20,000 nt of DNA from positions 1,901,459-1,921,458 of the forward strand of contig ML992501.1 in assembly GCA_010093995.1 (NCBI GenBank). Reading direction: 5' to 3'. Below, one piece after another: positions 1 through 20,000 of the stretch. Within the stretch, counting starts at the first letter, position 1; every line of letters starts with the position of its first letter. The notes beneath the pieces are model-generated. The model ran no database searches and had not been told where the DNA came from. It saw only the letters and a list, made by a program, of their open reading frames with translations. Position numbers and translations under genes: made by a program. This stretch comes from Elsinoe ampelina. Taxonomy: Eukaryota.

Positions 1-3000
1 GGTCCTCTGCTTCCTGTCGCCAACTTCTCCTCAACAACATCCTGAGAACGTGTCTTCTTCACCGGCATCTCCCATTGCTCCCAACTTGCCACAGACTCCT
101 TGTCAGCATTGAGATCACTCGCGCCGGTCTCCATGATTGTCTCTGGGACACCGTACTTCTCACCAGAGTTGCGATTTGATCGATCAGTGATGGTATCGTA
201 GCCACTGTCTCTGATCGTCTCTCGTGGCTTATCATCTTCCGGCAGGAAAAGCGACTCTGGTACGCCGCTGTCTCGGCTCTTGTCCAGAACATCGAAAGAC
301 CATCCGGGTGTATTGACGATTCCGGCAGGGCTTGGATCACGAGGTTTATCCAATTCACGTGATTGTTCTGTTGTTGCCAACGAGCCTTCCCGACCTCTTG
401 GGAGCTTACTGACAGTCGTAGGTAGACTCTGCGAGATCTCGGAAGTGTGCATCATGCCGACACTTGAAGTTGACGCTGGCGCTGCGTCGATGGCAGCAAT
501 GGTGGTCTCTGATGGCTCTTCTTCCGTTGGCGTCTCGGCATTCCAGTCAAATGCAGATCCTCGCTTCTTCTTTTTGGATTTCTTGCTCGGGAGATCTGGC
601 AGTGGGGTCTCGACGACTGGTTGCTTGACAGGCTCGGGAATAGCTTCGATCTCTAAAGCGCTTCCTCGTTTCCCTTTGCCCTTTCCCTTCTTACCCTTTT
701 TGATAGGCAGTGCCCATTCATCGTTCTCGGGAGCCTGCTCAGCGCTTGGTACGTCCAGAATCTCCCTGGGAGCAAGACCTGTCGTGTCAAGGGGCAGCTC
801 CTCATGCTCCACAGCGGCAGGTTGAAGCTCACCCGCTGGCATCTCCCCCGTGAGCTCGATAGCACGCCGAGCGTTCTGATCATTCGAGTCATCCTCTTCA
901 GTGTCGACGATCTTCTTGCCTTTGCGTTTCTTCTTGTTCGATTTCGTGAATATGGACTCTTCCGGCCCCTCAGCCTTCGATAGCTCTTCCTGGGATCTGC
1001 TGAGCATCGCTGCAGTGAAGCCAGCCGCTCCGAGACCTGCAGTCAATGCAGCAGTGAAATCATCATCCCCTTGCCCGTAAGTCGATGGCTTGTCGTGAGA
1101 ATCTGGCAACTCCTTTGAAAGCGTACCCTCATCTAGAAGAGACTGCTCAGTCTTTTCCTCAGATGGCGTATCCGTGGTCGATCTGCGATTCTTCTTCCCT
1201 TTCCGGCCTTTCTTGTTGACGATAGCAAAGGCTTCTTCAGGATCCACCTCTGCTACAGTACCTGGCGGCGATGATCGGCGGTGGAAGACTGGGTCCTCCA
1301 CAACCATGTTAGAGTCGAAGCCGGATTGTGCAAGACCAGCTGCGAGAGTGGCTGCAAAGTCTATATCGTTGGATGGCGGGCTAACAGCTCTTGCGAATGA
1401 CGATTGTGTTCCTCTCGCGCGATCATCGGACTCCCGCAGAACCGTGGTCTGTGACAAGTTGGCCCGCAGTCCTTCTTCCGCAGTCTTCTCAGCTACCGGT
1501 GTAGGCGGATCATCCTCGACATCGAAACCCTTTGCCTTCTTGGATTTGCGTTTTTCCTTTTTCGAGATCTTGCGAGTGATTGGAAATTCGGACTGGTCGA
1601 TGTGAGTAGTGTCTTGCGCTCGAGATGCGTCCTCAGTGTCGACCGTTGTTAACTTTTCCGCCACAGGCATGGCTGTCGGGACTCCCTCGTCATCCTGCTC
1701 AGCTGCTTCAACCTCGTCCGCCCAGTCAAATTTACTGAGTGGCCGAGAAAGGCGGAATTGATCTGGGACGCTTGATCGTGGTCCTGATCGGGCTTCGGCC
1801 AGTTCGGACGTTCCCTTTTCGCCGCCAATGGTCTGTGCTATAGACTCTTCTGAGGCTGGGTTGGACGCGACGACTGTGTCAGGCACCACGTCCGATTGCT
1901 CATCTTCGGCGAGGTCAAGAGTCTTTCGCTTCTGCTTGGCTTTCTTCCGATCTTTCTTGGAAAGTTTGAGACTAAAGGGAGAGAATTCCTCGTTGTCTGG
2001 TTCCCGATCCACGAGTTCTACTGGCTTTGCTTGTGCAGTGCTGCTGTCCTGTTCCGTGGAAACGAGGTTCTTCTCGTGGTTGTCGATTGGTGTCTCAGCA
2101 GGTACAGCGACAGAAGAGATCCCACGTTCTGGTGATTCTCTTCGTGACAAAAGTGGCTGACGCTCATCCTCGAGCAGCTCGGAAGGCGCTCTTGTCAAGG
2201 GCATTCGGTCTACCCCCATGAAGCACTCGTTGCCTTCGGAGGAGACGTGGGATGATTGCTGCCTGTGCGGTTCCGACTCTGTGTCGCGAGGCGGACTGTC
2301 CTTGAAACGCGAAATACCAACTTCCTCGACTGGTGATTCGGTCGTAATGACAGCATCTGATTGCTTTGCTGGTGTCGCTGGGATGTCAATTGGGTCCGTG
2401 ATTGCTGCTGATCGATCGACAGTATTTAGCCCGATGAGAGGTTCAGAGGACAACACTGCTTCAGAGATAGCATCCTTCGTTTCCCTGACTACGACAACAT
2501 CTTCTGACTTGGACGGATCAACTTGAGTAGACAAGTCTGGCTGCCGATCCGCTAACGCCAATTTCTGACCAGCTTCCTCAAGATCAGCGGGCAGAGGAAC
2601 TTCCCTTGAAAGAGGCGTTCCAATAGCTGATGCGCGTTTCGACTTCTTCCCTTTCTTCTTCTTAGACATACGAGCCCACATCTCATCCGGCGTCTCCATG
2701 TTCGAATCGAGGAGTGGGTCAATATCCCAATCCCCGAGCGGAGTTGGTATGGCGGATGTCTGTGCGCTGGTAATGGCAAGATTGTCGGTCTGGATGGGTG
2801 ACAGGTCGCGAAGGTCTTCGGGCATCTTCATTGTCTCGAGAGGGACGTCTGGTGAAGGCTGTGCAGGCTCGGAGATCGTGGATTCACGACGGTCGGATGT
2901 AGCTGGGAGGTCTCGCAAGTCAGATGGCATGACCATGCGTTCCAGAGGACGATCATCCGGTGCTGGACTCGGCACTTGCGACTGCACTTCGGATTTGGGC

Positions 3001-6000
3001 AGCCCGTCTCCGTCGCGGTTCACTTGTTCTTTGATCTCGTCGGGTGCAGCGCCGTTGTGTTCCGTCTTGATTTCCTCGGCCTTGTCATCACTCCGCAGAG
3101 CAAGAGCACCCGCAGCTGTGGCGAGAACAGCAGCCGCAGCGGCAGCCTTCCGACCCTTCTTCTTGCTCTTCGAGGTGGTCGGCGCCCAATCGTCCTCTTC
3201 AGGTTGATCGCTGGTAGGATGCTGGACAGGAGCTGTAACCTCAAAGTCGTCTGCCCGCTCAGTGACAGGGGGAGTCATCTGAGCGAAGTCGACGCCCGAA
3301 GCTCGTTTGCCTTTTTTGCCCTTCTTGCCTTTCTTAACGACGTATGAGCTCCATTCGTCTTCTGGTGTGGCTTGAACTGACTGTATTGGTGCCGAGTCGT
3401 TGATGGCTGGCGTGTCTGCGGGCTCGACTGCTTTTGATGGGCCCATACTGTCAGCAGTAGTGTCGATAGTCGGAACGCCTCGTTCAATATCCTTGCTAGT
3501 GGATGTGGCCAGTTGTTGCTCGGTCGCCGATCCGGTGGAGGCTGCATACTGGTCGGCAGTACCCCTGAGAGATTGCTCAGCAGGAGGATCAAAGCCAGAT
3601 TGATGAGGGACCGGATCGAGCTCGTCGCTGATGGCCCGCTTGGAATTCTTCCCTTTACGTGCTTTCTTTGTTGTGAATTCGTCATTCCAAGAAGTTTCGA
3701 TATGCGCAGTGGAAATTGGTTCTGTGGCAGGTTCATCGACGCGAGACTCCGTGTTGGCGAACTCGTCCACAGCCGGCTGGCTGCCCTCAGCGACTCCCAT
3801 GGTTTCGCCATGGCTTGTTGCTGTAGCCATATCCACCTTAGCAGGTTGCGAGATGACCTCGTTTGTAGTCGGAGCCTGCTCGTCTGCCTCAGCACGTTTC
3901 CCCTTCTTGCCCTTACGCTTCTTGAGAGGAGTGAAGCCCCAACCATCATCTGCGATGGTCTCATTGATTGTCGTGTTAGGCTCCTCTTGTTGGAGAATCG
4001 GTTCCGACGTCGACTCAATGGCTTGGATCTGCCCTACTGGATCAGCTGGAACAGGTGCGAGATTTCCAGACTCGTTATCAAGCGGCATCGCGGCATCAGC
4101 GATGGGCGCCGGTGCTGCCTCAAACTCAATTGCTTCTGCCCGCTTCCCTTTCTTGCCTTTCCGCTTCTTGACTGGAAAGTCCCAAGCATCATCTGCTGCG
4201 GTCTCGGCTGGTGGCTGTGACCGTTGCAATTCGATGTCGGCCTGTTTGTCTATGGCGATGACTTCCGTTGTTGGCAGGACCTCCACGTCTCTTGAAGATT
4301 GCTCTAGGCTCGGGAGTGGTGCATTGTCGTTGGGGACCGGGACCTCCTGTCCTTCCAGTGTCGTTTCTTCCGCCGGAGTCTCAGACAATGCCTTTCCCTT
4401 GCCACGCTTCTTGTCCTTTCTAGACTTCTTGGTGACGAAGACTTCCGAAGGGGGTTCAACCGGATTCTCAACATTCTTGACTTCTGTGTTACTGACATCG
4501 GGATCATCAGCATGGGCTGAGGTAGTTTCAGTGACGGCGGGCATCTGACTAACGGTCTCCAGCTCCTCCACATCGCCACGCATCCGGCTGCTCTCATCCC
4601 TGATCAGATCAACTTCACCCCACAGATTGGAGAAATCCCTTGGCTTCGCAGGCAGAGACGAAACAGGTTGGTCAGGGGTGGCTTCGATCGATGGCACTGG
4701 GTCCGGATGCGGGTTTTGCGCCTGAACGTCTTCAGTGGAAGTATGCTCAGGCAGAGGAGCATCGGGATCCGGTCGAGTGAATCGATCCGACTCATCCCTC
4801 ACCAGATCTTCGGGGCCCCATAGCGGCTCGCTGGAAGCAGTCTTCGTTTCGCTCGACTGTTGGACGGTTGTGTCGGAATCTTGGTTCTTATCGTGCTGCT
4901 CAGTAGACTTTTCTGCGTCGCCATCTAAGATTGTTCTGTCCCTGGATTTGCTCGACGAGGAACGCTTGTCTGATTTGTCGCTGCTGCGTTTCGATTTGCC
5001 AGCAATACCAGGTAGGACCCACGAGAGCACTGTCGAGGTAGCTGACTTTCGTTTCTCATCCTTGCTTTTGGATCGCTTGTCTTTGTTCCCACGCTCAGTT
5101 GACTTGCTCCGCGTATCGATGGGTGACGACGAATCATCGATCTTCTCGGCCTCGATGCCGTCCTTAGTCGTAGGTTGCTGTTCGGAGACGGTATCGTCTT
5201 GCTGTACAACCATACGGCTGTCCGGCAATATCTGGTCTTGCGTACCGACTGATGAGGATTCTTCGGGATGCACAGAACCGTCGGATTTGCCGTTTTTGTG
5301 ATTTCCAGTACCGAGAGCTGCGACCGTAGCACCTACGCCCGCAACAGCACCAGCCATTAGGCCCCAATAGTCTGTAGATCTGATCGCGTCCTGTTGTGAT
5401 GTCTGCACCATTTCCGAGGTAGCTACTTTGTCGTCCAAAGGGTCGGTGAGGGACTCAGCGGATTCTCTGAATTGCGGTGGTGTGGCGTCTTCAGTCCCTG
5501 CGGGTGTTACTTCGCCATTGCCGTCTTCATCCTCGAACGCCCAGGGATCAGATCTTCGAGCCTTCTTCAACTTCTTCCGCTCGGCTTTGGAGAGTTGCTT
5601 TGTATCTATTTCAATGGACTCGGTCTGTGCTGGCATTGTACCTTGCACGACATCTGTAGCGTCGTCGAAGCTCCTGACAGGTTCCACTGGCTCGCCAGTT
5701 GCTACCGATTCTGTTGGCTCTTGCAAAGGCTCATCGTTCCAAAGATCCACCTTCTTGCCTTTCTTGAGCTTTTTCAGCTCCTTCTTGGACAGTGGTTTAG
5801 CCCATTCGTCGGTCTCACTTGCTTGGTTCTGCGTAGCAGGAGAGTCAGAAGGCGGCTCGTGCGAAACGATCGTGGTTGGAGGCTCCTTTTGGAAAGGAGT
5901 GGCCTGCGTATCGAGTTCAGCTTCTTCCACTGCGATCGCAGCTGGGTTATCCTCAACAGCCACTTGCTTGCCCTTTTTCAGCTTCTTCAGCTCTTTCTTG

Positions 6001-9000
6001 GATAGCGGTTTCGACCATGGCTCAATTTCCTGTTCCAGGTCGGGATCTGCAGGTGCCTCTTTTCCTACAGTGGGGTCTGCATCTGCCAGGACAATTTCGC
6101 GAGGCGCGTCGGTATCCACCTCTCGAGTACCAGCGACGTCGACGATTTGCTTGCCCTCGGCGTCGACGGACGGTGATGGCTCCTCGCTCCACAAGTCGAC
6201 TTTCTTGCCTTTCTTCAGCTTCTTTAGTTCCTTCTTCGAGAGTGGTTTTGACCGCTCGTCAGCTTCAGGTTCCTGCTCAACGATAGTGCGAGAAGGGTCC
6301 GCAGTAGTTTGATTAGTGACGTCCACAGTGTCGGCAAGCGCCTCGTTCTCGACAGTAGTAGCAGTATTTGCGTCATCGTCAGGCTGCTTGCTGTCGCTGA
6401 CAATGTTCGTGGTCGGCTCTTCAATGGCAGTGTTCACCGGCTCATCACTCCATGGGTCTACTTGCTTCCCCTTCTTCAGCTTCTTGAGTTCTTTCTTCGA
6501 AAGTGGCTTACTCCAAGGCTCCGGTTCGGTCCCATTCGGTGGCTCGTCTGCGAGCTCCAAGGGTTGCGCTCTATCCTGAGTGGTCCCGGCATAAACACCA
6601 AGGTTATCGTCTGCTTCTGAGTATTCGGTCGGTTGAGTGGCATTGGCATTGATTGCCAATGGTTCTTCTCTACCCGGAGATAGAGCCGTCGGCGATTTAG
6701 CAGATAGATCCACCTGCTTTCCTTTCTTGAGCTTCTTCAGCTCCTTTTTGGAAAGAGACTTGCTCCCGGCTTCTGGTACTGCGGTGTCGACTGGGGCGTC
6801 GGGCTGCATATGGCTGGAGATATCCTCAGACTGGAGTTGTGGAGTTTCGAGGTTGGTTCTCGTCTCGGCCGAGTCATCCGGGAGGTCTGTTTGCTGTAAA
6901 GAAGCCGAATTGTCAAGCGTGCTTCTACCAGTCAGTTGTCTGTCCTCCGCGGCAGGAGATGGCTCCTCTGCCCAGATGTCAACTTTCTTGCCCTTCTTCA
7001 GCTTTTTCAGCTCTTTCTTTGATAACGGCTTCGACCATTCTTCGATCTCAGTAGGGTCTTGTGGACGCACGGGCGGATCAGCCTGCGGTTGCTGGACATC
7101 TGGGATGGCAGCGGCGTCAGATTCGCCGATGGTCTGGAGGGCAGAGGCGTCAACAGCATCAATCTTTTCGATATCGAGCTTGGCGAGAGGATGATGTGAC
7201 CCAGCAAGTGGGTCGCTCTGTCTCTCTTCATTAGGTGTTGAGGCTTGAGTCGACGGCTCTTCGGTCCACAAGTCGATCTTCTTGCCCTTCTTCAACTTCT
7301 TGAGCTCTTTCTTGGAAAGTGCTCGCGCTTCTGGCTGGACAGAGGACTCTGCAGGGGGCGGCTCAACTTCGGTCTGTTGTTCGACGTGCTCGGACACGAA
7401 ACGGGACGGGGCAGATGTCTCGATAGGTTCAGCGTCGGTCGACGTAGCATGTGACATGAATGCTTCACTTTGGTCCTGTGGGACTGGCTCGGTTGTTGCT
7501 GGCACAACGTCGTTCCAGATGTCAAATTGAACGCCCTTCCCCTTCTTTCCTTTCTTCTTCTTGTCAGACTTCAAGGGAGTAGATGCCCGTTCAACCTCAG
7601 TAGGTTTGGTCGTTCCCGCGGATCTCTCCACGGCGGTCACGGGCGTCGTGATGATCGATGGTTGCTCCTCAAAAGACGTTTGCTGCAGCTGCTGCATCTG
7701 CTCATCAATTCTAAACGTCTCCGACTGTTTCGATTCGTGAGTCTCAAGAGCGGGCAGACTTGTCGTGGGGTCATCTTCCTTCGAAATTCCAAGTTCAGTA
7801 AGACCTGACGGTGGTTGATCTCGAGTCGTAGATGGAACATCAGCAGGTACCACGATCGCTTCCTCCGACTTTAATTCGACAATGTCACGCTTGCTCTTAC
7901 TGCCTTTTCGTTCTCGCTTTGCTCGCCACTCCTTGCCTGGACTCTCACTCTCGCCGAAAAGACCATCGACAGCATCCCGAGTATCTTGCTCGTTCCTCTC
8001 CTTAATCTCTTCCGCAGTCTCGCGATCGACTTCACCGCTTGTCACGACAGCAGTGCCGAGCTTGAGAGGCTTGCCTTTCTTCTTGCTGCCCTTACGGGCA
8101 GGTTTGAGGACGAATGCAGGCTCCGGCTGTTCGCTGGGTGTGGCAAAGGAGGGGCTGGGCTCCTCCAGTGGCGTGGCGAACACGGAATGTGATCCTGGGG
8201 AGATCGGTGTGGGCTCAGCAAGGCTAGAGGTGGTTGGAGGCATGTCAGACCCGTCGCTGATAGGCTCGCGCGAATGAGAGCTAACGTCGGTCTCGGTCAG
8301 AGCGTCGGCAGCGAGTGCAGCTCCGGGCCCAAGTGCTACAGTGCTAGCAATGGTGCCAAAGTCCAAGCCTGTAGAGACGGTAGGTGCACTGTCAGGTTGC
8401 GGGACTTGGTCGACCGCATCTCTGGCTGCGCGTTCTTCCCTCTCCTTCTCCTCCCTAAGCATATCTTCCCAGCTGTAAAACTCGGGTTCACGCTTGGGCT
8501 TTTTGCTGAACACATCGGAAGGAAAGGCGCTCGCTCGAGGAGTACTCTGATTGGAGCTTAGCACGTCCTCGAAACGCATCTGCGACTCGATTGAACGCTC
8601 TATAGGCAAGTCGAAGTTCTTGAATTCATCCTCGGCAGACATGGCTGGCAGTGGTGTTTCTACGGCGTCTTCGAAGAGCTGCTCCTCAACAGCACTCTCA
8701 TATCCGTCGCTACCTCTAAGGCTCGATGCGCGGCTCGTCTCCCGACTGATCGGAAGAGGTGGTAGCGGCTCGTCCTCAAGGACTATTTCACTGGGCTTAC
8801 GATTGTGCTCGACGAGATACAAAGGTTGAAACTCTCGTCTGATCTCAATAGATCGGGGCCTCGAAGCTCTGGTCCGAGGTGTAATGAGAGAAGCAGGGGA
8901 ATCTGGTGAAGCAGGTACTTGACTCGAGAAGCTCTCTGCTCGTTGCCGTGAAGCGTTTGGCGTGGACGTCGTGCTCACCGATGGTGAAGGTGGCGGCCGG

Positions 9001-12000
9001 CGAAAGCGGAATGGTACAGCTGTAGCGGACGCTGGGCGAAGTGGCAAAGCTGCGGGACGCCGAGGAGTCTCTGTAACCGGTGACTGAAGGGATAGAGACT
9101 CTGGCGACATGACACTGCCTCCGAGGCTTTCTTCATGATACATGGTCGCGGTACCAAGATCAGCTGACCTGTCGGAATTTATGGCCGTCTCTGGAGCTCG
9201 AGACAGCTGGGTTGATGGTTCGGCGGGTAGAGATTGAAGCTCCTCAACCTCTACCCGCTTGGCTAAAAAAGACTGATCCTGGTATTTATCCTCTCCGGTC
9301 AATGTGCTGCTCCGGTCACGGTTTCGCAGATCCTCTTTGGACGAAGTTGATCGACGAGATAATTGATCAGGTGGGCTCTCTGCTTCGCGGTCTCGTCGAC
9401 GTTCGCGCTTCGACTCGGATGGTATATCACCATAGTCTGCAGTGCTCCGCCGCGAGATGCCAGAGGCAACACTGCGTGTGTCATCGTCGTCTCCTGTCCC
9501 GCGACGGCGATGATGTTTCTTGTCTTTCTTGTCGTCGCGATCATCTGGCTCATCTTGATTGGCGTCTTCCGACTTGCGACGGAACATTCCGAACAGGCCG
9601 CCCTTCTTGTCCTTCTTCGACGAGCTCTCATCTTTATCACGCTTTGACTTGCTCGAACGCTCAGAGTAGCCTGAAACCATGGACATGTTGTCATCAAAGT
9701 CGCCACTACGTCTTGACTTTTTCTTACGGGCTCTCCGCTCCTCTTCTGTCTCGGTTCGTTGAGGCTCGTCAAAGGATCCCGGAATGCCATAATTGAACTG
9801 CTCTCGCTCGGTGTTGCCATTCCTGTCCGCAGAGGCGGCCTCATACGGTGGTGAGCGTGATAGAGTGTCTCGTCGCTGGCGGGACTTCTCGTCAATAGGA
9901 CTCCTATCGTCGAATCGATCCTCATCTCGTTTGTCTGAGCGAGATTTCAGTGCATCGTTGGCGACGAAACCGGCAGCCCCGCCGGCTAGCAGCGCTGTAG
10001 CGATGTCACCGAAGCTCTGCTTGTCCTTTCTGCGGTCGCCAGCTTCGGACTGAGTGTCGCGATCAATTTGGTCCTCTCGACGTTTGCTGCCAGGCTCTGA
10101 CGCGGCATATGTATCTCGAGTTGTAGAAGTGTCCCGAGAAGATTTGTCGTCGGCCAGACTCTTGCGGCGTTCCTTCTCGAGCTTCTTCTTGTCCTTTTTC
10201 GAGAGTGGGGCTGCCCAGGCTGTGTCTAGCTCTTCCTCCTTGGACGCAATGCCATTCGTTGAAAGGACAGGCTCGGATATATCATCGGTATTTTGTCGAG
10301 CAAGCTTGTCTCGCTTTTTCAGCTCCTTCTTGCTCAACGGTACTTGCCACTCGTCAGCTGTGGGAGCTTCTTCCACAGGAGTCTCGACCGGCGTAGGGAA
10401 GTCTTCTGTGTTTTGTCTAGCAAGCTTGTCTCGTTTCTTCTGTTCCTTCTTGCTCAACGGAATCTGCCACTCGTCGGCTGCAGAGGTTTCCTCGACCGGG
10501 GTCTCGACTGGAGTAGAGAAGTCGTCCGTGTTCTGTCGAGCAAGCTTGTCACGTTTCTTTTGCTCCTTCTTGCTCAAGGGAACTTGCCACTCATCCTGGA
10601 CGGAAACCTCCTTGACTGGCGTTTCGACCGGCGTCGAAAACTCGTCGGTGTTCTGTCGTGCCAATTTGTCCCTTTTCTTCTGCTCCTTTTTACTTAGAGG
10701 GACAGACCACTCATCATTTGCAGCGTCGTGGAATGCGGTTGACTCTGACTGCTCCTTGACAGGGATCTCAATTGGATTGGCAAAGTCATCCGTAGCTTGC
10801 CGTGCCAATTTCTCTCGCTTCTTCTGTTCCTTGCGTGACAGGGTCGGAGTCCATGTGTCTTCTTGCTCAGCAATGGCTTCAATGACAGGCTGAATCATAG
10901 GGTCAGAAGCTGGCTCAGGAATCGTCTGCAAAGGCGTCACAGAAGCGCTCGCGAAATCGTCCGTATCCTCCCTGACGAGCTTGTCTCGACGTTTCCTGTC
11001 CTTTTTCGAAAGAGGTGCTTCGAAAAATTGCTCCTCGTTGTCTTTCGTAGGAGGTGTTTGGACTGCCATGAATGGCTCCAGAGCTTCAGCGACTATGTCA
11101 TCAGTATCGCGACGAGGTAGCTTGTCTCGCTTGCGTTGCTCCTTCTTAGTGAGCGGCTTCTCCCAACTTTCCTTGTCGCCAGCGGCCTGGGCGACAGGCT
11201 CCTCGATGACGGATGAAGCACGCTCGGACATGTCTGGCTCAGAGGCAAAATCTACAATCTCACGCGTGCCAGTCTTGCCCTTCCGCTTCTTGTCCTTTTT
11301 GCTAAGGCCAGTGTCCCATGTTTCAGATCTTGTGTCGAGATCTCGATCCTCTTTCTCAAGATTGCGAGGTGGCAGCGAAGACCATGACTGAGCAAGAGGC
11401 CCGTCTTCGATGACCTTATCCTTGACCTCGCGAACACGAGATGTATCCCGGCTAGGAGGCTTCGTTTCTCGTGATATTGTTGGTGGTGGCCCATCTTCGA
11501 AAGCACCTGGAATATAGGACCTCCTCTCAGCCACGGGCGTTGGCTCGTCCACCTCGCCTTCAATAAAGCCTCGAACAGGCGGTGCTCCCTCAGTACCAGG
11601 AGAGTCTAATGACATTCCAAGATCGGACACGGTCTCGAAGAAGGGTGACTGGTAGATACCAGGTCGTTCGAAAGATGATCTCGGCTCTTCGCGAACGACT
11701 TCGATTGTCTCAGGCTCTCCAGTAAATCTGTCAGCGGCGAATGGAGCCGCGGCGGATGGGAGATCGCTGAATTTGTAGCTCGTGCTGGGCTCGCCACGTT
11801 CATCGCTCTTGACTTCGATGACCGGATCTGAGGGATACGCCCCAGCAGGTGGTAAACGCGGACTGTGCGCAGGGGACTCGATCTCATAGAAGCGAGTATC
11901 ATCTGGACCCCAGCTGACTCGATTGGCCACTTTCTCGTCCCTTGTCTTCTCGGCGGACTGATTGGGGATTTCACGTTCCGTCACGACGTGTGGAGAGACC

Positions 12001-15000
12001 GGCGATTTGTCGCCCTTGGCAGAGCCTGCCATGCTCACAGGGGGTGTAGGCACAATCAATCCCAGATGAGGCACACCGTCCTTGCGGATTAGCACCTGAG
12101 TCTTAGGATCGAAACGCTTAAAGTCGCCTGCATGCATAGTGTAGTGGATGTCAGCATCGGCATTGGGTACCCATTCCTTCAGCTTCTTCTGCCGTTCCTC
12201 CTCTTCGGAGAGGACAGGTTTCTTTTCGAGTTCTTTAGGCGCAAAGAACTCAGCTTGCGTGGGCTGTGGCGAGGTGTACTTCTCTTTCAGATCTGCAACG
12301 ACGCGCGCCGCAGTATCTCTGGCAGCATCAGAATATTCTACACGAGATCGTCCGCGCTTTTGATCTTCGGGAGTGTCCGGAGAATAGGCATCGTCTTCGG
12401 TATCGCGACGACTCGGCTTGAATGTCTGAGTGTAGTATCCTGTAGCAGGGTCGTAACTCGAGTGCGTTTGTTCTGCCAAATCGTTATGACCAGGGTATGG
12501 AGGCGGAGGCGTCGAGCGTGCTCCTCCTTCTCGTGCTTGTCGCTCGGCCAGCTCCTTCTTCTTGGCTGCTATGAGCGCCTCCAGCTCTCGCTCGCGGTCC
12601 GACAAAGCATTTACAGGCTGCTGAGGAGGCTGTGAAACTTGCGGGTTGGTAATTGGAGGAGGAGACGGTAGAGCACCGCTCATGCTGTATTGTGCTTCGT
12701 GCTCGGCTCTATCAGCGATAGCTTGTCGTTCATTCTCACGTGCTCGGTCGTAAGCTTTGCGCTCGGCATCTTCTCGTTTCGTGCGTGTGCGCTCGCTCTC
12801 TTGGACACGTTCTCTCTCTCGTTCTGCCTCGTGGTTCTCATCGCGATTGTCATTACGTCTTTCTCTTCGTGAATCTTTTCGAGACTGTCGGTCATCTTCG
12901 AAACGGACGCTCGAGTCGTCTTTCCTGCCACGTGTCGCAGCATAGATTCCAGCGGCTGCAGCGGCAGCGCCACCCAGCACCGCAGCGTCACCCATGGAAA
13001 TGCCAGGAGATGGATCTGTCTGGGATCTACGGGGCGCAGGCAGTTCGGGCCGGTTCCCATCCTTCCTGCGTTCTGACGTAGAAGAAGAATAGTCGCTTCT
13101 GCCATCTCTAGACTGGCCAGACCAGCCGCGTTCTGGTCGCGTCTCGTATCTAGGCTGAGCAGAGACTGCCGATGATGAGTCTGTGAACGGCATAGGTTCA
13201 ACATGCTGCATGGGGCGCATGGCTGTTGACGAGACCACCGAGGCGACATCTGCGAGCCTTACAGGCGTGGGCTGCGCTGGTGAGGGGTAAGACTGTATTC
13301 TTGACGATTGTGGAGATTCTCTCATGGGTAGCGATGGCGTAGGTTCAATGGTGTATGTTGGTCGCTGCTTAGGCTTCTCTCGCTTTTGAGATGAGCTGCC
13401 CCATCGCCATCCCCATTTCCCTGTACCCGAAGAGTCCGAACTCAGAGATTCTCGACTCGATCTTCGGGCAGGTCTCTTGCCTTTGTCGTAGTGCAAATCT
13501 CCGAATGCGAGACCTGAGGTCGCGCTTGAAGCGTCAGATTCAGAAACTGACTCCCAGCCATCCTCGTCAGCCGAGCTTGGACGCCCAAGAACACTTCCAC
13601 GATCGCGGTGCCCGTGAGCACTGGGCTTCTCCTTCACAGCAATCACTTCTGGTCGCCGTCTACTTTGTGCCGCCGCGAGAGCTGCCGCAGTAGCCCCGAT
13701 CCCTAGCAGCGTAGAGTCGAGATGATCTCTCGAGTTGCGTCGGGAACGTCTCCTAGGGCTCGATTTGCGGCGGCTGATCGAACCTCCGAACGCCAATCCT
13801 GAATCCGAGGAAGAAGATGAGCCATTGCCAAAGTTGAAGAAGCCCTTTTGCTTCCTCTTCTTTTTGCCAGAAATCGATTTCCGTTTGGACTTTGGGGCTG
13901 TGACTCCAAGCATCTCTCCAATGCCAGGGCTGTGGCTTCGTGATCGGGAGCGCGATCGTCTGCGGATGGACACCCCATTTGGATGGGCTTCATGAGCACG
14001 TGAGGGGCCGGCATATGTAACATATCTTTCCTTCGATCGCGACCGCGACGACCTGATGGGTTCAGGGTGTCTTACGGTCAAAGCATCTGGATTTTGCGGA
14101 TACACATAGTCATTACGACCATGCGGTCGCACCACACCTCGCGAGATATCTGATCCTCTTGACTGGTAGCTCGGTGGTCGGTCCGATCGTCCAGACTTAG
14201 CACTGTAATCGTCGTTGAGCTCATGCTTCTGGTTCCAGAGTGCCCCGCCGACTTTAGCAATGCCGTACCCGGCCAGACCAGCACCAAGCCAGCCAGCCTT
14301 ACTTTTCCGCTTGCCGCCATTTTCAGACGAAGACGAAGAGTGGTATCTTGCATCCTTGTCGACACCACTATGCTTCCCTTTGCGTCTAGCAGACTGTCGT
14401 AAAGATTCGTTCGATCGGCGTCTCTTGAACGAGTCGCTGGAACGCCGACGATGGAAGTGATGTGGTCTGGGTGCATCTCGCGCCGAAGACTTGGGATCGA
14501 AGCAATATTTGCAAACCCCAATATACTCAGTATATTCTTCCATTCTGCGGACATCCTCCTTGTTCTGGACTAGGTCGAACAATCGGTCAAGAGGACCTCG
14601 ATGCGTATGTCTATGCTTGTGCTCTATCGCCTGTCCTACCATTGAGGGCGGGCGATAGGTGAATTGATCTTCCTGCGGATGGTTGACAGGGAGGGTTGAT
14701 GATCCTGAAGTATGATGCGCAGCATAGGCACCGGCCGCCAGTCCTGCCGCTCCGGCAGCCGCTACAGTGGGCAATGAGCTTCCATTTGCTTGAACGGGCT
14801 GTGGAGGTTGCGCAGGAACGTAGTAAGCTCCCCCAAAACCGCCATTATTCTGGGGAATATTGCTCCCGTGCTGTGCCCATGTCCCATTTGCTGTGCCCGA
14901 TGCAGTATAGAAAGATGCTGCATCACTCGCCCCAACTCCTGAACCTGGCTGACCAGGTGCGTATGCAGAAGTTGAAGGTCCATGTTCTGGTCTGGAAGGT

Positions 15001-15752
15001 CTCGAAGAGCTGGATTGTTTTGGGGGTTTAGATAGGCTTCCACTTGCTCCATAGAAGTCTGCAGCTGATCCATTGCCAGTGTCCTGTGCAGGAGTTGGGA
15101 TCGAAGATGCTGGTTGTAAATGCGGTGGATGGTGCATCTTGATATCGGGAGAAGGTGGCCTGACACCTGGTTGCATGCTCACCGACTGGCCCTGGTCACC
15201 GTAGAAGTCTGCAGCGAGCCCATAGCCTCCCTCAGAAGTAGTCTTTCCTGCCCGCTCAAAAGCGTTATGCGAATAGTCCGCCGGAAATTGACCTGGAAAT
15301 TGATTCTGTACATTGGACGATAGTTGAGGTATAGCAGATTGAGACATGCCATACGGCTGATCGTGTTGTCCAGGGAATTGACTGAAGCCTGTCGCGCGCA
15401 TACCACTGGCAAAGTCCTCTGCGCCTCTGGTCCTCTCAGTTCGTGCAGCGCGAGAGGGGCCCTCGGTCGACTCGACTCGTTTCTCTTTTCGCTTGTCGCT
15501 GTCGCGTCTGTCTCCCTCCCTCCTCTTGCGGTCTTTTGACCTGCTTCGAGACCGACTCTTTTTGCCTCCCTTCTTTTCCGAGCGCGAGGAGACTCTGCTC
15601 CTGATTTCACTCTTGCCATCCAGATCCTCCCATTCTTCCTCGTTTGCGACACTCCGGATGGCGCTCTCTGTAAGCGAAGGTGTTCGACTGGACTTGTCCG
15701 ACTTCTTGTTGCTCTTGGAGGAAGAGCTATTGCTCCGACGAAGTCCAAACAT
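1..15752 (-). CDS. lah: Giant (>=5250 aa, 3'-partial) Leashin-like Woronin body tether protein ('involucrin repeat protein' family)
   Basis: ATG at 15752 in a CACAATATG context, with an in-frame TAA at 15780-15782 upstream. It reads MFGLRRSNSSSSKSNKKSDKSSRTPSLTESA. The frame was open at every point I translated (15752, 15200, 14500, 13000, 10300, 9260, 8800, 7000, 5350, 1300, 3). No minus-strand ORF in the track below 15752 lies in this frame, as expected if the frame has no stop and runs off the window. Motifs that I recall from Pezizomycotina Lah homologues: GLAADFYGDQGQSV..QPGVRP, DTGNGSAADFYG, MEEYTEYIGVCKYCFDP, WLGAGLAGYGIAKVG, SDSGLAFG, TAVPFRFRRPP, EFQPLYLVEHNRK, DFAATLAAGLAQSGFD...DPVFHRRSSPPG. 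It also has many poly-Lys islands in acidic disordered sequence. The ORF itself is near certain; the family call is by recognition, not by search. Confidence 0.82.
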   Translation of the reverse strand, partial: MFGLRRSNSSSSKSNKKSDKSSRTPSLTESAIRSVANEEEWEDLDGKSEIRSRVSSRSEKKGGKKSRSRSRSKDRKRREGDRRDSDKRKEKRVESTEGPSRAARTERTRGAEDFASGMRATGFSQFPGQHDQPYGMSQSAIPQLSSNVQNQFPGQFPADYSHNAFERAGKTTSEGGYGLAADFYGDQGQSVSMQPGVRPPSPDIKMHHPPHLQPASSIPTPAQDTGNGSAADFYGASGSLSKPPKQSSSSRPSRPEHGPSTSAYAPGQPGSGVGASDAASFYTASGTANGTWAQHGSNIPQNNGGFGGAYYVPAQPPQPVQANGSSLPTVAAAGAAGLAAGAYAAHHTSGSSTLPVNHPQEDQFTYRPPSMVGQAIEHKHRHTHRGPLDRLFDLVQNKEDVRRMEEYTEYIGVCKYCFDPKSSARDAPRPHHFHRRRSSDSFKRRRSNESLRQSARRKGKHSGVDKDARYHSSSSSENGGKRKSKAGWLGAGLAGYGIAKVGGALWNQKHELNDDYSAKSGRSDRPPSYQSRGSDISRGVVRPHGRNDYVYPQNPDALTVRHPEPIRSSRSRSKERYVTYAGPSRAHEAHPNGVSIRRRSRSRSRSHSPGIGEMLGVTAPKSKRKSISGKKKRKQKGFFNFGNGSSSSSDSGLAFGGSISRRKSSPRRRSRRNSRDHLDSTLLGIGATAAALAAAQSRRRPEVIAVKEKPSAHGHRDRGSVLGRPSSADEDGWESVSESDASSATSGLAFGDLHYDKGKRPARRSSRESLSSDSSGTGKWGWRWGSSSQKREKPKQRPTYTIEPTPSLPMRESPQSSRIQSYPSPAQPTPVRLADVASVVSSTAMRPMQHVEPMPFTDSSSAVSAQPRYETRPERGWSGQSRDGRSDYSSSTSERRKDGNRPELPAPRRSQTDPSPGISMGDAAVLGGAAAAAAGIYAATRGRKDDSSVRFEDDRQSRKDSRRERRNDNRDENHEAERERERVQESERTRTKREDAERKAYDRARENERQAIADRAEHEAQYSMSGALPSPPPITNPQVSQPPQQPVNALSDRERELEALIAAKKKELAERQAREGGARSTPPPPYPGHNDLAEQTHSSYDPATGYYTQTFKPSRRDTEDDAYSPDTPEDQKRGRSRVEYSDAARDTAARVVADLKEKYTSPQPTQAEFFAPKELEKKPVLSEEEERQKKLKEWVPNADADIHYTMHAGDFKRFDPKTQVLIRKDGVPHLGLIVPTPPVSMAGSAKGDKSPVSPHVVTEREIPNQSAEKTRDEKVANRVSWGPDDTRFYEIESPAHSPRLPPAGAYPSDPVIEVKSDERGEPSTSYKFSDLPSAAAPFAADRFTGEPETIEVVREEPRSSFERPGIYQSPFFETVSDLGMSLDSPGTEGAPPVRGFIEGEVDEPTPVAERRSYIPGAFEDGPPPTISRETKPPSRDTSRVREVKDKVIEDGPLAQSWSSLPPRNLEKEDRDLDTRSETWDTGLSKKDKKRKGKTGTREIVDFASEPDMSERASSVIEEPVAQAAGDKESWEKPLTKKEQRKRDKLPRRDTDDIVAEALEPFMAVQTPPTKDNEEQFFEAPLSKKDRKRRDKLVREDTDDFASASVTPLQTIPEPASDPMIQPVIEAIAEQEDTWTPTLSRKEQKKREKLARQATDDFANPIEIPVKEQSESTAFHDAANDEWSVPLSKKEQKKRDKLARQNTDEFSTPVETPVKEVSVQDEWQVPLSKKEQKKRDKLARQNTDDFSTPVETPVEETSAADEWQIPLSKKEQKKRDKLARQNTEDFPTPVETPVEEAPTADEWQVPLSKKELKKRDKLARQNTDDISEPVLSTNGIASKEEELDTAWAAPLSKKDKKKLEKERRKSLADDKSSRDTSTTRDTYAASEPGSKRREDQIDRDTQSEAGDRRKDKQSFGDIATALLAGGAAGFVANDALKSRSDKRDEDRFDDRSPIDEKSRQRRDTLSRSPPYEAASADRNGNTEREQFNYGIPGSFDEPQRTETEEERRARKKKSRRSGDFDDNMSMVSGYSERSSKSKRDKDESSSKKDKKGGLFGMFRRKSEDANQDEPDDRDDKKDKKHHRRRGTGDDDDTRSVASGISRRSTADYGDIPSESKRERRRDREAESPPDQLSRRSTSSKEDLRNRDRSSTLTGEDKYQDQSFLAKRVEVEELQSLPAEPSTQLSRAPETAINSDRSADLGTATMYHEESLGGSVMSPESLSLQSPVTETPRRPAALPLRPASATAVPFRFRRPPPSPSVSTTSTPNASRQRAESFSSQVPASPDSPASLITPRTRASRPRSIEIRREFQPLYLVEHNRKPSEIVLEDEPLPPLPISRETSRASSLRGSDGYESAVEEQLFEDAVETPLPAMSAEDEFKNFDLPIERSIESQMRFEDVLSSNQSTPRASAFPSDVFSKKPKREPEFYSWEDMLREEKEREERAARDAVDQVPQPDSAPTVSTGLDFGTIASTVALGPGAALAADALTETDVSSHSREPISDGSDMPPTTSSLAEPTPISPGSHSVFATPLEEPSPSFATPSEQPEPAFVLKPARKGSKKKGKPLKLGTAVVTSGEVDRETAEEIKERNEQDTRDAVDGLFGESESPGKEWRAKRERKGSKSKRDIVELKSEEAIVVPADVPSTTRDQPPSGLTELGISKEDDPTTSLPALETHESKQSETFRIDEQMQQLQQTSFEEQPSIITTPVTAVERSAGTTKPTEVERASTPLKSDKKKKGKKGKGVQFDIWNDVVPATTEPVPQDQSEAFMSHATSTDAEPIETSAPSRFVSEHVEQQTEVEPPPAESSVQPEARALSKKELKKLKKGKKIDLWTEEPSTQASTPNEERQSDPLAGSHHPLAKLDIEKIDAVDASALQTIGESDAAAIPDVQQPQADPPVRPQDPTEIEEWSKPLSKKELKKLKKGKKVDIWAEEPSPAAEDRQLTGRSTLDNSASLQQTDLPDDSAETRTNLETPQLQSEDISSHMQPDAPVDTAVPEAGSKSLSKKELKKLKKGKQVDLSAKSPTALSPGREEPLAINANATQPTEYSEADDNLGVYAGTTQDRAQPLELADEPPNGTEPEPWSKPLSKKELKKLKKGKQVDPWSDEPVNTAIEEPTTNIVSDSKQPDDDANTATTVENEALADTVDVTNQTTADPSRTIVEQEPEADERSKPLSKKELKKLKKGKKVDLWSEEPSPSVDAEGKQIVDVAGTREVDTDAPREIVLADADPTVGKEAPADPDLEQEIEPWSKPLSKKELKKLKKGKQVAVEDNPAAIAVEEAELDTQATPFQKEPPTTIVSHEPPSDSPATQNQASETDEWAKPLSKKELKKLKKGKKVDLWNDEPLQEPTESVATGEPVEPVRSFDDATDVVQGTMPAQTESIEIDTKQLSKAERKKLKKARRSDPWAFEDEDGNGEVTPAGTEDATPPQFRESAESLTDPLDDKVATSEMVQTSQQDAIRSTDYWGLMAGAVAGVGATVAALGTGNHKNGKSDGSVHPEESSSVGTQDQILPDSRMVVQQDDTVSEQQPTTKDGIEAEKIDDSSSPIDTRSKSTERGNKDKRSKSKDEKRKSATSTVLSWVLPGIAGKSKRSSDKSDKRSSSSKSRDRTILDGDAEKSTEQHDKNQDSDTTVQQSSETKTASSEPLWGPEDLVRDESDRFTRPDPDAPLPEHTSTEDVQAQNPHPDPVPSIEATPDQPVSSLPAKPRDFSNLWGEVDLIRDESSRMRGDVEELETVSQMPAVTETTSAHADDPDVSNTEVKNVENPVEPPSEVFVTKKSRKDKKRGKGKALSETPAEETTLEGQEVPVPNDNAPLPSLEQSSRDVEVLPTTEVIAIDKQADIELQRSQPPAETAADDAWDFPVKKRKGKKGKRAEAIEFEAAPAPIADAAMPLDNESGNLAPVPADPVGQIQAIESTSEPILQQEEPNTTINETIADDGWGFTPLKKRKGKKGKRAEADEQAPTTNEVISQPAKVDMATATSHGETMGVAEGSQPAVDEFANTESRVDEPATEPISTAHIETSWNDEFTTKKARKGKNSKRAISDELDPVPHQSGFDPPAEQSLRGTADQYAASTGSATEQQLATSTSKDIERGVPTIDTTADSMGPSKAVEPADTPAINDSAPIQSVQATPEDEWSSYVVKKGKKGKKGKRASGVDFAQMTPPVTERADDFEVTAPVQHPTSDQPEEDDWAPTTSKSKKKGRKAAAAAAVLATAAGALALRSDDKAEEIKTEHNGAAPDEIKEQVNRDGDGLPKSEVQSQVPSPAPDDRPLERMVMPSDLRDLPATSDRRESTISEPAQPSPDVPLETMKMPEDLRDLSPIQTDNLAITSAQTSAIPTPLGDWDIDPLLDSNMETPDEMWARMSKKKKGKKSKRASAIGTPLSREVPLPADLEEAGQKLALADRQPDLSTQVDPSKSEDVVVVRETKDAISEAVLSSEPLIGLNTVDRSAAITDPIDIPATPAKQSDAVITTESPVEEVGISRFKDSPPRDTESEPHRQQSSHVSSEGNECFMGVDRMPLTRAPSELLEDERQPLLSRRESPERGISSVAVPAETPIDNHEKNLVSTEQDSSTAQAKPVELVDREPDNEEFSPFSLKLSKKDRKKAKQKRKTLDLAEDEQSDVVPDTVVASNPASEESIAQTIGGEKGTSELAEARSGPRSSVPDQFRLSRPLSKFDWADEVEAAEQDDEGVPTAMPVAEKLTTVDTEDASRAQDTTHIDQSEFPITRKISKKEKRKSKKAKGFDVEDDPPTPVAEKTAEEGLRANLSQTTVLRESDDRARGTQSSFARAVSPPSNDIDFAATLAAGLAQSGFDSNMVVEDPVFHRRSSPPGTVAEVDPEEAFAIVNKKGRKGKKNRRSTTDTPSEEKTEQSLLDEGTLSKELPDSHDKPSTYGQGDDDFTAALTAGLGAAGFTAAMLSRSQEELSKAEGPEESIFTKSNKKKRKGKKIVDTEEDDSNDQNARRAIELTGEMPAGELQPAAVEHEELPLDTTGLAPREILDVPSAEQAPENDEWALPIKKGKKGKGKGKRGSALEIEAIPEPVKQPVVETPLPDLPSKKSKKKKRGSAFDWNAETPTEEEPSETTIAAIDAAPASTSSVGMMHTSEISQSLPTTVSKLPRGREGSLATTEQSRELDKPRDPSPAGIVNTPGWSFDVLDKSRDSGVPESLFLPEDDKPRETIRDSGYDTITDRSNRNSGEKYGVPETIMETGASDLNADKESVASWEQWEMPVKKTRSQDVVEEKLATGSRG
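5530..7330 (-). repeat. Coding dispersed repeat array B (7 units + 1 degenerate, consensus W-S/A-KPLSKKELKKLKKGK-K/Q-VDLW)
   Basis: Copies at about 7265-7325, 6970-7040, 6705-6760, 6450-6515, 6190-6250, 5960-6020 and 5740-5805, plus a degenerate LSKAERKKLKKARRSDPW at about 5540-5595. The acidic spacers vary in length, giving a period of ~210-300 nt. Confidence 0.9.
9223..9270 (-). promoter_or_regulatory. Candidate -1 programmed ribosomal frameshift signal (U_UUU_UUA + 5-nt spacer + 16-bp hairpin)
   Basis: The minus strand reads TC-TTTTTTA (9270-9264; codons TCT TTT TTA, correct X_XXY_YYZ phase), then GCCAA, GCGGGTAGAGGTTGAG (9258-9243), loop GAGC, TTCAATCTCTACCCGC (9238-9223). The stem has 14 Watson-Crick and 2 G-U pairs. 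The -1 frame reads AGC CAA GCG GGT AGA GGT TGA (stop at 9246-9244). Confidence 0.7.
10170..11170 (-). repeat. Coding tandem repeat array A (~8 units, consensus DEWxVPLSKKEQKKRDKLARQNTDDFSTPVETP)
   Basis: Trp codons at 10347, 10467, 10587 and 10707 give an exact 120-nt (40-aa) period, with another at 10851. More diverged units lie near 11010, 11160 and 10215. Confidence 0.9.
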
Positions 15753-17447: not shown

Positions 17448-17776
17448 TCTGGTCAAGCGCGTCGGCGCCTAGGGCTCTCAGGAGCTTCCAATGGCACGGG
17501 ATCTTGCTGGTTGGCGTGGTGCGAGGTCGTTGAAGGCGAAGAAGTGGGATGTGGAGTGATGAAGCTGGAAGAGCTGCGAACACAGGCGGCCATCCAAGAG
17601 AACTTCCTGTGAACGCCTGGCCCGTGCGGATCTGCAGCTGTTGTAACTGGCAAATCGGATCGAGAGACGTGTGTTTCATTCAGAGAGTTACAATAACCGA
17701 TTTATCTACTGTGCGTGCGCTGACTTATCAGTACCAGTTCTTTAGTACTAGAGAAGCTATACTAGCCTTCTATTAT

Positions 17777-17790
17777 AACACTCCCCCTCT
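17777..17790 (-). other. Polypurine tract and probable start of the 3' LTR
   Basis: The minus strand reads AGAGGGGGAG followed immediately by TGTT, a typical PPT/LTR junction, in the same orientation as the RNase H. Confidence 0.6.
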
Positions 17791-19999: not shown

Positions 20000-20000
20000 G

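What the first reader, a model, noticed from the sequence alone, without database searches (positions are those of the whole stretch)
9223..9272. Retrovirus-like -1 ribosomal frameshift cassette in the middle of a fungal leashin-like gene
Seen in sequence: an in-frame U_UUU_UUA heptamer (TCT TTT TTA = S-F-L, codons 2161-2163). It uses TTT and TTA codons, atypical for this GC-rich ORF, and it is the only six-U run I noticed in the 15.7-kb coding strand. A 5-nt spacer follows, then an uninterrupted 16-bp stem with a 4-nt loop. Established: U_UUU_UUA plus a downstream stem-loop is the HIV-1 gag-pol type of -1 signal, and 5-9 nt spacers are typical. E. coli dnaX and copA use -1 shifts into a nearby stop to make truncated isoforms. 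Inference: this nuclear gene is recoded, with a fraction of ribosomes ending at ...DQSF(L/F)SQAGRG* (~2169 aa). Validated -1 frameshifting in cellular fungal genes is rare, and I know of no report for leashin.
Basis: partly seen in the sequence, partly recalled or inferred. Interest (0 to 1): 0.93.

Follow-up and report, generated by a model that had tools for sequence, protein, structure and literature searches.

The report
Frameshift-like signal in fungal leashin gene
A giant fungal tether-protein gene contains a textbook-looking ribosome-slipping signal that sits exactly on a deeply conserved protein motif, but whether the cell really uses it could not be settled here.

Summary
On the minus strand, an in-frame U_UUU_UUA (9270-9264) is followed by a 5-nt spacer and a 16-bp/4-nt-loop hairpin (9258-9223, two G-U pairs). 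A -1 frame UGA lies at 9246-9244. It is the only T6 run and the most stable 45-nt fold in the 15.7-kb ORF.

- Codon-shuffled versions of the ORF give an equally good heptamer+hairpin in 13 of 1973 trials. That implies a few such cassettes per fungal genome by chance.
- S-F-L belongs to a protein motif, SFLxxR, found in 110 of 121 full-length orthologues across fungal classes. Amino-acid conservation therefore needs no RNA explanation.
- The hairpin-coding peptide is kept only in Elsinoaceae, and E. australis has two replacements in the stem.
- In favour: the cassette is built from rare codons (0 of 20000 recodings fold as well). The ORF is otherwise purged of slippery runs.

Relatives' nucleotides, the decisive evidence, could not be read because the table was cut.

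Odds: incidental cassette on a conserved peptide about 0.45; programmed -1 frameshift about 0.3.

The parts
3..15752 (-). Leashin-like giant ORF (5250 codons, 3' end runs off the window)
   Evidence: The closest proteins are Elsinoe fawcettii, E. australis and Sphaceloma murrayae proteins of 5672-6240 aa. No Pfam family matched.
9264..9272 (-). Codons 2161-2163, TCT TTT TTA = S-F-L. They are the core of the conserved SFLxxR peptide motif. The in-frame slippery heptamer T_TTT_TTA is 9270-9264.
   Evidence: The motif is present in 110 of 121 full-length orthologues. It is invariant in the alignments A2 (8 of 8) and A3 (12 of 12).
9259..9263 (-). 5-nt spacer GCCAA
9243..9258 (-). 5' arm of the hairpin. 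It covers the last base of the K codon and the codons for R V E V E.
9239..9242 (-). Loop GAGC
9223..9238 (-). 3' arm of the hairpin. It covers the last two bases of the L codon, the codons for Q S L P, and the first two bases of the A codon.
9244..9246 (-). TGA stop in the -1 frame, inside the 5' arm. A -1 shift would end the protein at ...DQSF(L/F)SQAGRG, about 2169 aa.
9263..9265 (-). TAG in the +1/-2 frame, overlapping the end of the heptamer
   Evidence: read

Best explanation
The stretch encodes the core of a deeply conserved short peptide motif of leashin-family proteins, [QE]-S-F-L-x-x-R-[VP]-E. In this Elsinoe-like species the motif happens to be written with the codons TCT TTT TTA. 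The next 12 codons (K-R-V-E-V-E-E-L-Q-S-L-P-A) fold into a strong 16-bp hairpin.

On physical grounds such a U_UUU_UUA + 5 nt + stable stem-loop should make a small fraction of ribosomes slip -1 and stop at the UGA seven codons on. This step is inferred, not shown. The most likely status is an incidental, lineage-restricted cassette riding on a protein-level motif, not a selected recoding device.

Shown here: the anatomy, its rarity within the gene, its chance rate, and the protein-level conservation. Inferred: that slippage occurs at all, and that it is not selected for.
For: 1. SFLxxR is present in 110 of 121 orthologues of 2800 aa or more, from Dothideomycetes to lichen-forming classes. S, F, L and R are invariant in alignments of 8 and of 12 diverse sequences whose identity to the query falls to 26-28%. 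The preceding Q/E and the R at +5 are conserved too, and a slippery site does not require them.

2. Downstream of R[VP]E the peptide changes between lineages: RVEDLPPLP, RPQPPPTP, RPEIPSTG. This particular hairpin therefore cannot be family-wide.

3. The three-way identical run DQSFLAKRVEVEEL (14 aa) is ordinary for this protein; 17 longer runs exist.

4. Hairpins this stable occur somewhere in 5 of 30 codon-shuffled ORFs. A heptamer plus a hairpin at least this stable occurs in 13 of 1973 shuffles. Scaled to about 15 Mb of coding DNA, that is a few per genome by chance. The scaling is my own arithmetic, and the 15 Mb figure is my assumption, not a tool result.

5. E. australis has V->A and P->S inside the stem. 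These replacements necessarily change two pairs.
Against: 1. Given the peptide and the gene's own codon usage, 0 of 20000 synonymous recodings fold as well (best -25.3 against -27.3 kcal/mol). The chance of xxT TTT TTA is 0.0049.

2. The stem uses the rare codons CGG (12%), GTA (12%), CTA (10%) and CCC (17%), plus TTA (4.8%) in the heptamer.

3. The ORF is strongly depleted of slippery sequence.
- Homopolymer runs of 6 or more: 2 observed against a mean of 17.3 in shuffles; 0 of 5000 shuffles had 2 or fewer.
- In-frame heptamers: 7 observed against 16.3 (P = 0.007).
- In-frame TTTTTTA arises in only 39 of 5000 shuffles.
A harmful accidental cassette would be expected to be purged by one synonymous change.

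4. The sense-strand hairpin is more stable than its antisense copy (-26.3 against -21.8 kcal/mol). This fits an RNA-level feature better than a DNA-level one.

5. The replacements in relatives are compatible with keeping stem pair 5. It would be G-C with V/P, G-U with A/S in E. australis, and A-U with I/S in P0004. This is inferred from amino acids only.
Confidence: 0.45

Rival explanations
1. Programmed -1 ribosomal frameshift. A set fraction of ribosomes slips on U_UUU_UUA, stimulated by the hairpin, and terminates at UGA 9246-9244. The outcome would be one or both of the following: (a) a 2169-aa N-terminal isoform that lacks the central linker and the C-terminal anchoring region; (b) exposure of the roughly 17-kb mRNA to nonsense-mediated decay, as a dosage control.
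For: - The anatomy is canonical, with a spacer inside the 5-9 nt range called typical in Atkins et al. 2016 (passages read; anatomy).
- The hairpin is the strongest local fold in the ORF, sits next to the only U6 run, and is built from rare codons.
- The ORF is otherwise purged of slippery runs.
- The sense fold is better than the antisense fold.
- The F-L needed for UUU UUA is invariant in orthologues.
- V/P, A/S and I/S at stem pair 5 fit a G-C, G-U, A-U series.
- There are precedents. One is a -1 shift conserved across Pezizomycotina in the Rab-GDI displacement factor gene (Atkins 2016, passage). Others are the yeast -1 signals that end in premature stops and destabilise mRNAs (abstracts of Jacobs 2007 and Belew 2011).
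Against: - No nucleotide-level conservation could be examined.
- Conservation of S-F-L is explained by a peptide motif.
- The hairpin-coding peptide is absent outside Elsinoaceae and its near relatives.
- The chance rate is 0.66% per ORF of this size.
- Several claimed cellular -1 frameshifts in other eukaryotes have been contested (CCR5 and ATP7B papers, search listing only).
Confidence: 0.3
2. The hairpin is a selected RNA element with a role other than frameshifting. Examples are a translational pause site or a binding or localisation element in a very long mRNA. The U6A next to it is then coincidental.
For: - The fold relies on rare codons, and 0 of 20000 recodings match it.
- The sense fold is more stable than the antisense fold.
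- It is the only close inverted repeat of 12 nt or more inside the ORF.
- It persists in a 301-nt context.
Against: - No Rfam family matched. The only hit was mir-197 on the other strand at E = 0.78, far below its gathering score.
- No covariation data are available.
- Hairpins this stable arise in 5 of 30 shuffled ORFs.
Confidence: 0.1
3. The stretch is not coding here at all, because it is a small in-frame intron (GTAGAG...CAG, 48 nt), or the palindrome is purely a DNA-level by-product.
For: The 48 nt from GTA at 9254 to CAG at 9207 are in frame and begin with GT and end with AG (read).
Against: - The peptide encoded by this stretch (VEVEEL[QR]SLPAE) is present in the annotated proteins of three other species.
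- The 5' site GTAGAG and the lack of a CTRAC branch site fit fungal intron consensus poorly (consensus recalled, not from a call).
- The two G-U pairs would be mismatches in DNA or in the antisense RNA.
Confidence: 0.03

Closest known systems
HIV-1 gag-pol -1 frameshift signal (U_UUU_UUA plus a stem-loop)
   Same: The heptamer is identical, and the stimulator is a simple stable stem-loop a few nucleotides downstream. The heptamer and stem-loop of HIV-1 are as described in the abstract of PMC4373837 (listing) and in Atkins 2016 (passages).
   Different: This is a cellular fungal gene, not a retroviral one. The -1 frame is closed after 6 codons, so the shift would truncate the protein, not extend it. 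No experimental or phylogenetic support exists here.
E. coli dnaX (tau/gamma) and copA -1 frameshifts that yield truncated isoforms
   Same: The logic is the same: a -1 shift into a nearby stop gives a shorter protein from the same mRNA. dnaX's A_AAA_AAG is mentioned in Atkins 2016.
   Different: Those are bacterial, use a different heptamer, and dnaX has an upstream SD-like stimulator. In a eukaryote a stop roughly 11 kb before the normal one would probably also trigger mRNA decay (inference).
Conserved -1 frameshift in the Pezizomycotina Rab-GDI displacement factor gene (Podospora anserina: U_UUU_UCC, pseudoknot 2 nt downstream)
   Same: It is a nuclear gene of the same subphylum, with a U-rich tandem shift site and a 3' RNA structure (Atkins 2016 passage).
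   Different: That shift opens a long extension ORF and is conserved over about 400 million years. Here the shift closes the protein, and conservation is untested.
Yeast endogenous -1 PRF signals acting as mRNA-destabilising elements (e.g. EST2)
   Same: The layout is a heptamer plus a structure inside an ORF that sends ribosomes to a premature stop. Such signals were predicted in about 10% of genes and are described as rapidly evolving (abstracts of PMC1802563 and PMC3074144).
   Different: Those signals were defined with pseudoknots, whereas this is a plain hairpin. NMD dependence is untested. The generality of that class is debated (listing only).
Neurospora lah-1/lah-2 split of the leashin locus
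   Same: It is a way to make an N-terminal leashin product without the C-terminal pore-anchoring part. Ng et al. 2009 show this changes Woronin-body positioning (PMC2690989, passages).
   Different: In Neurospora it is achieved by an internal terminating exon and a second promoter, not by recoding. Any functional parallel here is speculation.

Membership tests
Programmed -1 ribosomal frameshift signal | In-frame X_XXY_YYZ slippery heptamer | tested here: met
   T_TTT_TTA at 9270-9264 in the ORF's frame. It is 1 of 7 in-frame heptamers with Y = A/T and the only U6 run.
Programmed -1 ribosomal frameshift signal | Stable RNA structure starting about 5-9 nt downstream | tested here: met
   5-nt spacer, then a 16-bp stem with a 4-nt loop. 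The 45-nt fold is -27.3 kcal/mol, the lowest of 15706 windows. For the 91-nt fold, z = -4.2 and 0 of 200 shuffles fold as well. The hairpin is kept in a 301-nt fold.
Programmed -1 ribosomal frameshift signal | Defined outcome in the -1 frame | tested here: met
   SQAGRG then TGA at 9246-9244. A stop this near is also what chance gives.
Programmed -1 ribosomal frameshift signal | Co-occurrence beyond chance | tested here: inconclusive
   13 of 1973 codon-shuffled ORFs have a heptamer with a hairpin at least as stable 3-9 nt downstream. 0 of 20000 recodings of this peptide fold as well. This is rare per gene but expected several times per genome.
Programmed -1 ribosomal frameshift signal | Heptamer and structure conserved at nucleotide level in orthologues (suppressed synonymous change, covariation) | tested here: inconclusive
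   Two relatives at about 90% identity cover the site without indels: the X7 contig over 8600-9596 with 94 differences, and the X9 contig over 9137-9298 with 16. No other orthologous DNA could be reached.
Programmed -1 ribosomal frameshift signal | Frameshift product or ribosome drop-off observed | not testable with these tools
   No run on record as RNA holds the stretch. There are no proteomic or profiling data.
Leashin (LAH/Lah) Woronin-body tether | Giant protein (about 5000-10000 aa) with conserved N- and C-terminal regions separated by a poorly conserved, charged, repetitive middle (Ng et al. 2009 passages) | tested here: met
   More than 5250 aa. Three-way identity is high up to about residue 2450, near zero over about 2650-3450, and patchy after that. 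KK-rich repeats are present. Orthologues are 4-7.6 k aa and share a conserved C-terminal block that lies beyond the window's end.
Leashin (LAH/Lah) Woronin-body tether | Sequence homology to a characterised Lah (A. fumigatus AFUA_2G08060, N. crassa NCU02793) | not tested
   The link is indirect only. UniRef names several orthologues 'Involucrin repeat protein'. That is the same name carried by AFUA_2G08060, which tethers Woronin bodies (PMC8227032 passages). No Aspergillus or Neurospora protein was among the 120 of 186 hits listed.
Leashin (LAH/Lah) Woronin-body tether | Binds WSC on Woronin bodies and anchors at the septal pore | not testable with these tools
   This is a functional property and needs experiments.

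The most novel reading that the evidence does not exclude
Elsinoaceae leashin carries a selected -1 frameshift signal embedded in the family's invariant SFLxxR motif. A fixed share of ribosomes would then make a 2169-aa N-terminal leashin that lacks the elastic linker and the pore-anchoring C-terminus. That product would be a translational counterpart of the lah-1/lah-2 gene split of Neurospora. The shift might also tune the stability of the roughly 17-kb mRNA through nonsense-mediated decay.
Probability: 0.25. Interest if true: 0.8.

Novelty: new member of a known kind. Interest (0 to 1): 0.45.

Why it matters
Phylogenetically supported -1 frameshifting in non-retroelement nuclear genes is very rare and often contested. 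A real case in leashin would add a second conserved example in Pezizomycotina. It would also give a mechanism for making tethered and untethered forms of a Woronin-body tether from one mRNA.

If it is incidental, it is a useful calibration. A perfect-looking HIV-type cassette on a conserved peptide arises in about 0.7% of codon-shuffled ORFs of this size, so anatomy alone is not evidence. Separately, the invariant SFLxxR motif is an unreported handle on leashin function.

Tried and rejected
- Whole genome of the window: none is held.
- Orthologous DNA, metagenome scan: it gave one locus (L001), a relative of P0005. Its contig begins about 28 codons after the motif, so it says nothing.
- Orthologous DNA, other scans: prokaryote genome and viral contig scans found no relative.
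- Sequencing runs: 12 of 15 listed rows hold part of the stretch, and no RNA holder is listed.
- Laying X4, X5, X7 and X9:
  - X4 and X5 are identical to the window where they cover it, and they do not cover the site.
  - X7 and X9 cover the site, but only 40 of 95 difference rows were printed, all at or below 8961.
- Rfam: nothing above threshold.
- Pfam: nothing.
- Earlier findings of this scan: nothing on this gene or genome.
- Paper search 'leashin' + 'frameshift': one unrelated paper.
- Intron reading of 9254-9207: rejected, because the peptide is present in orthologous proteins and the splice signals are poor.
- An 18-nt exact match to 9243-9260 on another contig of organism C: judged a chance match. 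The second 18-mer on that contig is low-complexity DKKDKK coding sequence.
- Pseudoknot: not considered further, because a 4-nt loop leaves no room for loop pairing.
Full report
**What is there**

The window's minus strand carries one ORF from 15752 to the window's start. It has 5250 codons and no stop before the end.

The closest proteins are 5672-6240-aa proteins of Elsinoe fawcettii, E. australis and Sphaceloma murrayae. Across the queried regions they are 60-77% identical. A search with residues 330-830 found 186 relatives of 2887-9188 aa among 1129 scored candidates. The 120 listed come from Dothideomycetes, lichen-forming fungi and others.

Three features match the published description of leashin (Ng et al. 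2009, PMC2690989, passages read):
- The N-terminal roughly 2450 aa are conserved.
- A nearly unalignable stretch (about 2650-3450) is followed by a patchily conserved, KK-rich repetitive region.
- Orthologues share a conserved C-terminal block that lies beyond the window.

Direct similarity to a characterised Lah was not tested. The link is the shared UniRef name 'Involucrin repeat protein', which AFUA_2G08060 also carries (PMC8227032, passages). Pfam finds nothing.

**The observation**

- Codons 2161-2163 are TCT TTT TTA (9272-9264), giving an in-frame T_TTT_TTA.
- The spacer is GCCAA.
- A 16-pair stem (9258-9243 with 9238-9223, two G-U pairs) closes on the loop GAGC.
- The -1 frame reads SQAGRG and stops at TGA 9246-9244.
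- A TAG lies in the +1/-2 frame at 9265-9263 (read).
- The T6 run is the only one in the CDS.
- The hairpin is the most stable of all 15706 45-nt windows (-27.3 kcal/mol; mean -7.9, sd 3.6; next best -25.4 at 14768-14724).
- The hairpin survives in 91-nt and 301-nt folds.
- It is the only close inverted repeat of 12 nt or more inside the ORF.

**How unusual is it?**

Two null models give different pictures, and both matter.

*Holding the peptide fixed and drawing codons from the gene's own usage:*
- 0 of 20000 recodings fold as well (best -25.3, mean -9.7).
- xxT TTT TTA has probability 0.0049.
- The stem uses CGG, GTA, CTA and CCC, each only 10-17% of its family. TTA is 4.8% of Leu codons.
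- From those frequencies I calculate by hand about 4e-5 for all 16 pairs.

*Shuffling synonymous codons over the whole ORF:*
- A hairpin at least as stable turns up somewhere in 5 of 30 shuffles.
- An in-frame heptamer (Y = A/T) with such a hairpin 3-9 nt downstream appears in 13 of 1973 shuffles. At -25 kcal/mol or lower the count is 49, and at -20 or lower it is 351.
- If a fungal genome has about 15 Mb of coding sequence (my assumption, not a tool result), that means a few equally good cassettes per genome by chance (my arithmetic). Anatomy alone therefore cannot carry the claim.

One result pushes the other way. The real ORF is strongly depleted of slippery sequence.
- It has 2 homopolymer runs of 6 or more, against 17.3 expected; 0 of 5000 shuffles had 2 or fewer.
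- It has 7 in-frame heptamers, against 16.3 expected (P = 0.007).
- In-frame TTTTTTA arises in only 39 of 5000 shuffles.

The survival of the one U6A beside the strongest hairpin is therefore odd if it were harmful.

The sense hairpin is also more stable than its antisense copy (-26.3 against -21.8 kcal/mol).

**Conservation at the protein level**

DQSFLAKRVEVEEL is identical in the window, E. fawcettii and S. murrayae. However, 17 longer identical runs exist in the protein.

More telling, SFLxxR is a family-wide motif.
- It is invariant in an 8-sequence alignment that reaches 28% identity.
- It is invariant in a 12-sequence full-length alignment.
- It is present in 20 of the 41 proteins stored at that stage, many of which are fragments.
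- It is present in 110 of 121 proteins of 2800 aa or more.
- Of the 11 without it, one has SFF. In the others no near variant in the expected region turned up. I did not check whether gaps or gene models explain this.

The residue before S (mostly Q/E) and the R at +5 are conserved, although a slippery site does not need them.

Downstream of R[VP]E the sequence differs by lineage: RVEDLPPLP, RVEDEESMPLPE, RPQPPPTP, RPEIPSTG. The hairpin-coding peptide is restricted to Elsinoaceae, and partly to two unnamed Dothideomycetes (P0004, P0005).

Amino-acid conservation of S-F-L is thus explained without RNA.

Within the close group the replacements are at least compatible with the lower stem. These readings are inferred from amino acids.
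- Q->R can keep a U-G pair.
- The pair formed by the first bases of the Val and Pro codons would be G-C (V/P), G-U (A/S in E. australis) and A-U (I/S in P0004).
- E. australis V->A changes U to C in the 5' arm. This needs a synonymous CTA->CTG to be compensated. That is a prediction, not a result.

**Conservation at the nucleotide level: the decisive test, not achieved**

- No genome is held.
- The single metagenome locus starts about 28 codons after the motif.
- Prokaryote and viral collections hold no relative.
- Sequencing-run contigs of two relatives cover the site without indels or joints. Organism C spans 8600-9596 with 94 differences in 997 nt. Organism D spans 9137-9298 with 16 differences.
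- From the printed rows, 34 of 108 third codon positions differ in 8640-8961. The 18 cassette codons would therefore be expected to carry about 5.7 changes if unconstrained. The data that could settle the matter exist but were not visible to me.

**Comparison with what is known**

- The heptamer and plain stem-loop resemble HIV-1 gag-pol.
- The truncating outcome resembles dnaX/copA. It also resembles the yeast -1 signals that send ribosomes to premature stops and destabilise mRNAs (abstracts of Jacobs 2007 and Belew 2011).
- Spacers of 5-9 nt are called typical in Atkins et al. 2016 (passages).
- The same review describes a -1 shift conserved across Pezizomycotina in the Rab-GDI displacement factor gene. 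[quoted passage not shown] Recoding in nuclear genes of this subphylum therefore has precedent.
- Against easy acceptance, claimed cellular -1 shifts in CCR5 and ATP7B have been contested (search listing only).
- A search for 'leashin' with 'frameshift' found one unrelated paper. No report for leashin is in the library searched.

**Verdict**

The interpretation remains open.
- About 0.45: an incidental, lineage-restricted cassette lying on a conserved peptide motif. On physical grounds it probably causes a little slippage.
- About 0.3: a selected -1 frameshift, giving a truncated isoform and/or decay-mediated dosage control.
- About 0.1: a hairpin with another RNA role.
- About 0.03: an intron or a DNA-level by-product.
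- The rest is unassigned.

If real, it would be a new member of a known kind.

Noticed in passing
window 9255-9272 (-), protein residues 2161-2166: SFLxxR is an invariant short motif of the whole leashin-like family. It is present in 110 of 121 full-length orthologues and sits in a conserved central module alongside VPxRFxxPxSP, PLYLV and LPxLPxS. I know of no described function for it.
   Followed up: partly
window 3-15752 (-): The ORF is strongly depleted of homopolymer runs and slippery heptamers relative to synonymous codon shuffles. Runs of 6 or more: 2 against 17.3. In-frame heptamers: 7 against 16.3. No A_AAA_AAG or A_AAA_AAA occurs despite about 400 Lys codons.
   Followed up: partly
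window 4765-4818 (-): A second in-frame heptamer, G_GGC_CCC at 4818, is followed by a -21.9 kcal/mol local fold. It is not a canonical slippery sequence.
   Followed up: no
window 14724-14768 (-): This is the second most stable local fold of the CDS (-25.4 kcal/mol), in an Ala/Gly-rich stretch.
   Followed up: no
window 18001-20000: GC drops sharply to 25-30%, against about 54% in the rest of the window. Several short AT-rich inverted repeats lie at 17754-19653. This is possibly an AT-rich or repeat-degraded block upstream of the gene.
   Followed up: no
window about 5500-10900 (-), protein residues about 1620-1850 and 2880-3400: There are two families of tandem peptide repeats built around PLSKKEQKKRDKLARQNTDDF and PLSKKELKKLKKGKKVD.
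   Followed up: no
L001 1577-1673: In the metagenome relative the long frame breaks and continues in another frame with about 100 nt of overlap. This could be an intron, a sequencing frameshift or something else.
   Followed up: no
window 9243-9260 (+): Another contig of organism C carries an exact 18-nt match to the 5' arm of the hairpin. About 600 nt away it also has an 18-nt match to a low-complexity DKKDKK-coding stretch at 9516-9533. This is probably chance.
   Followed up: partly
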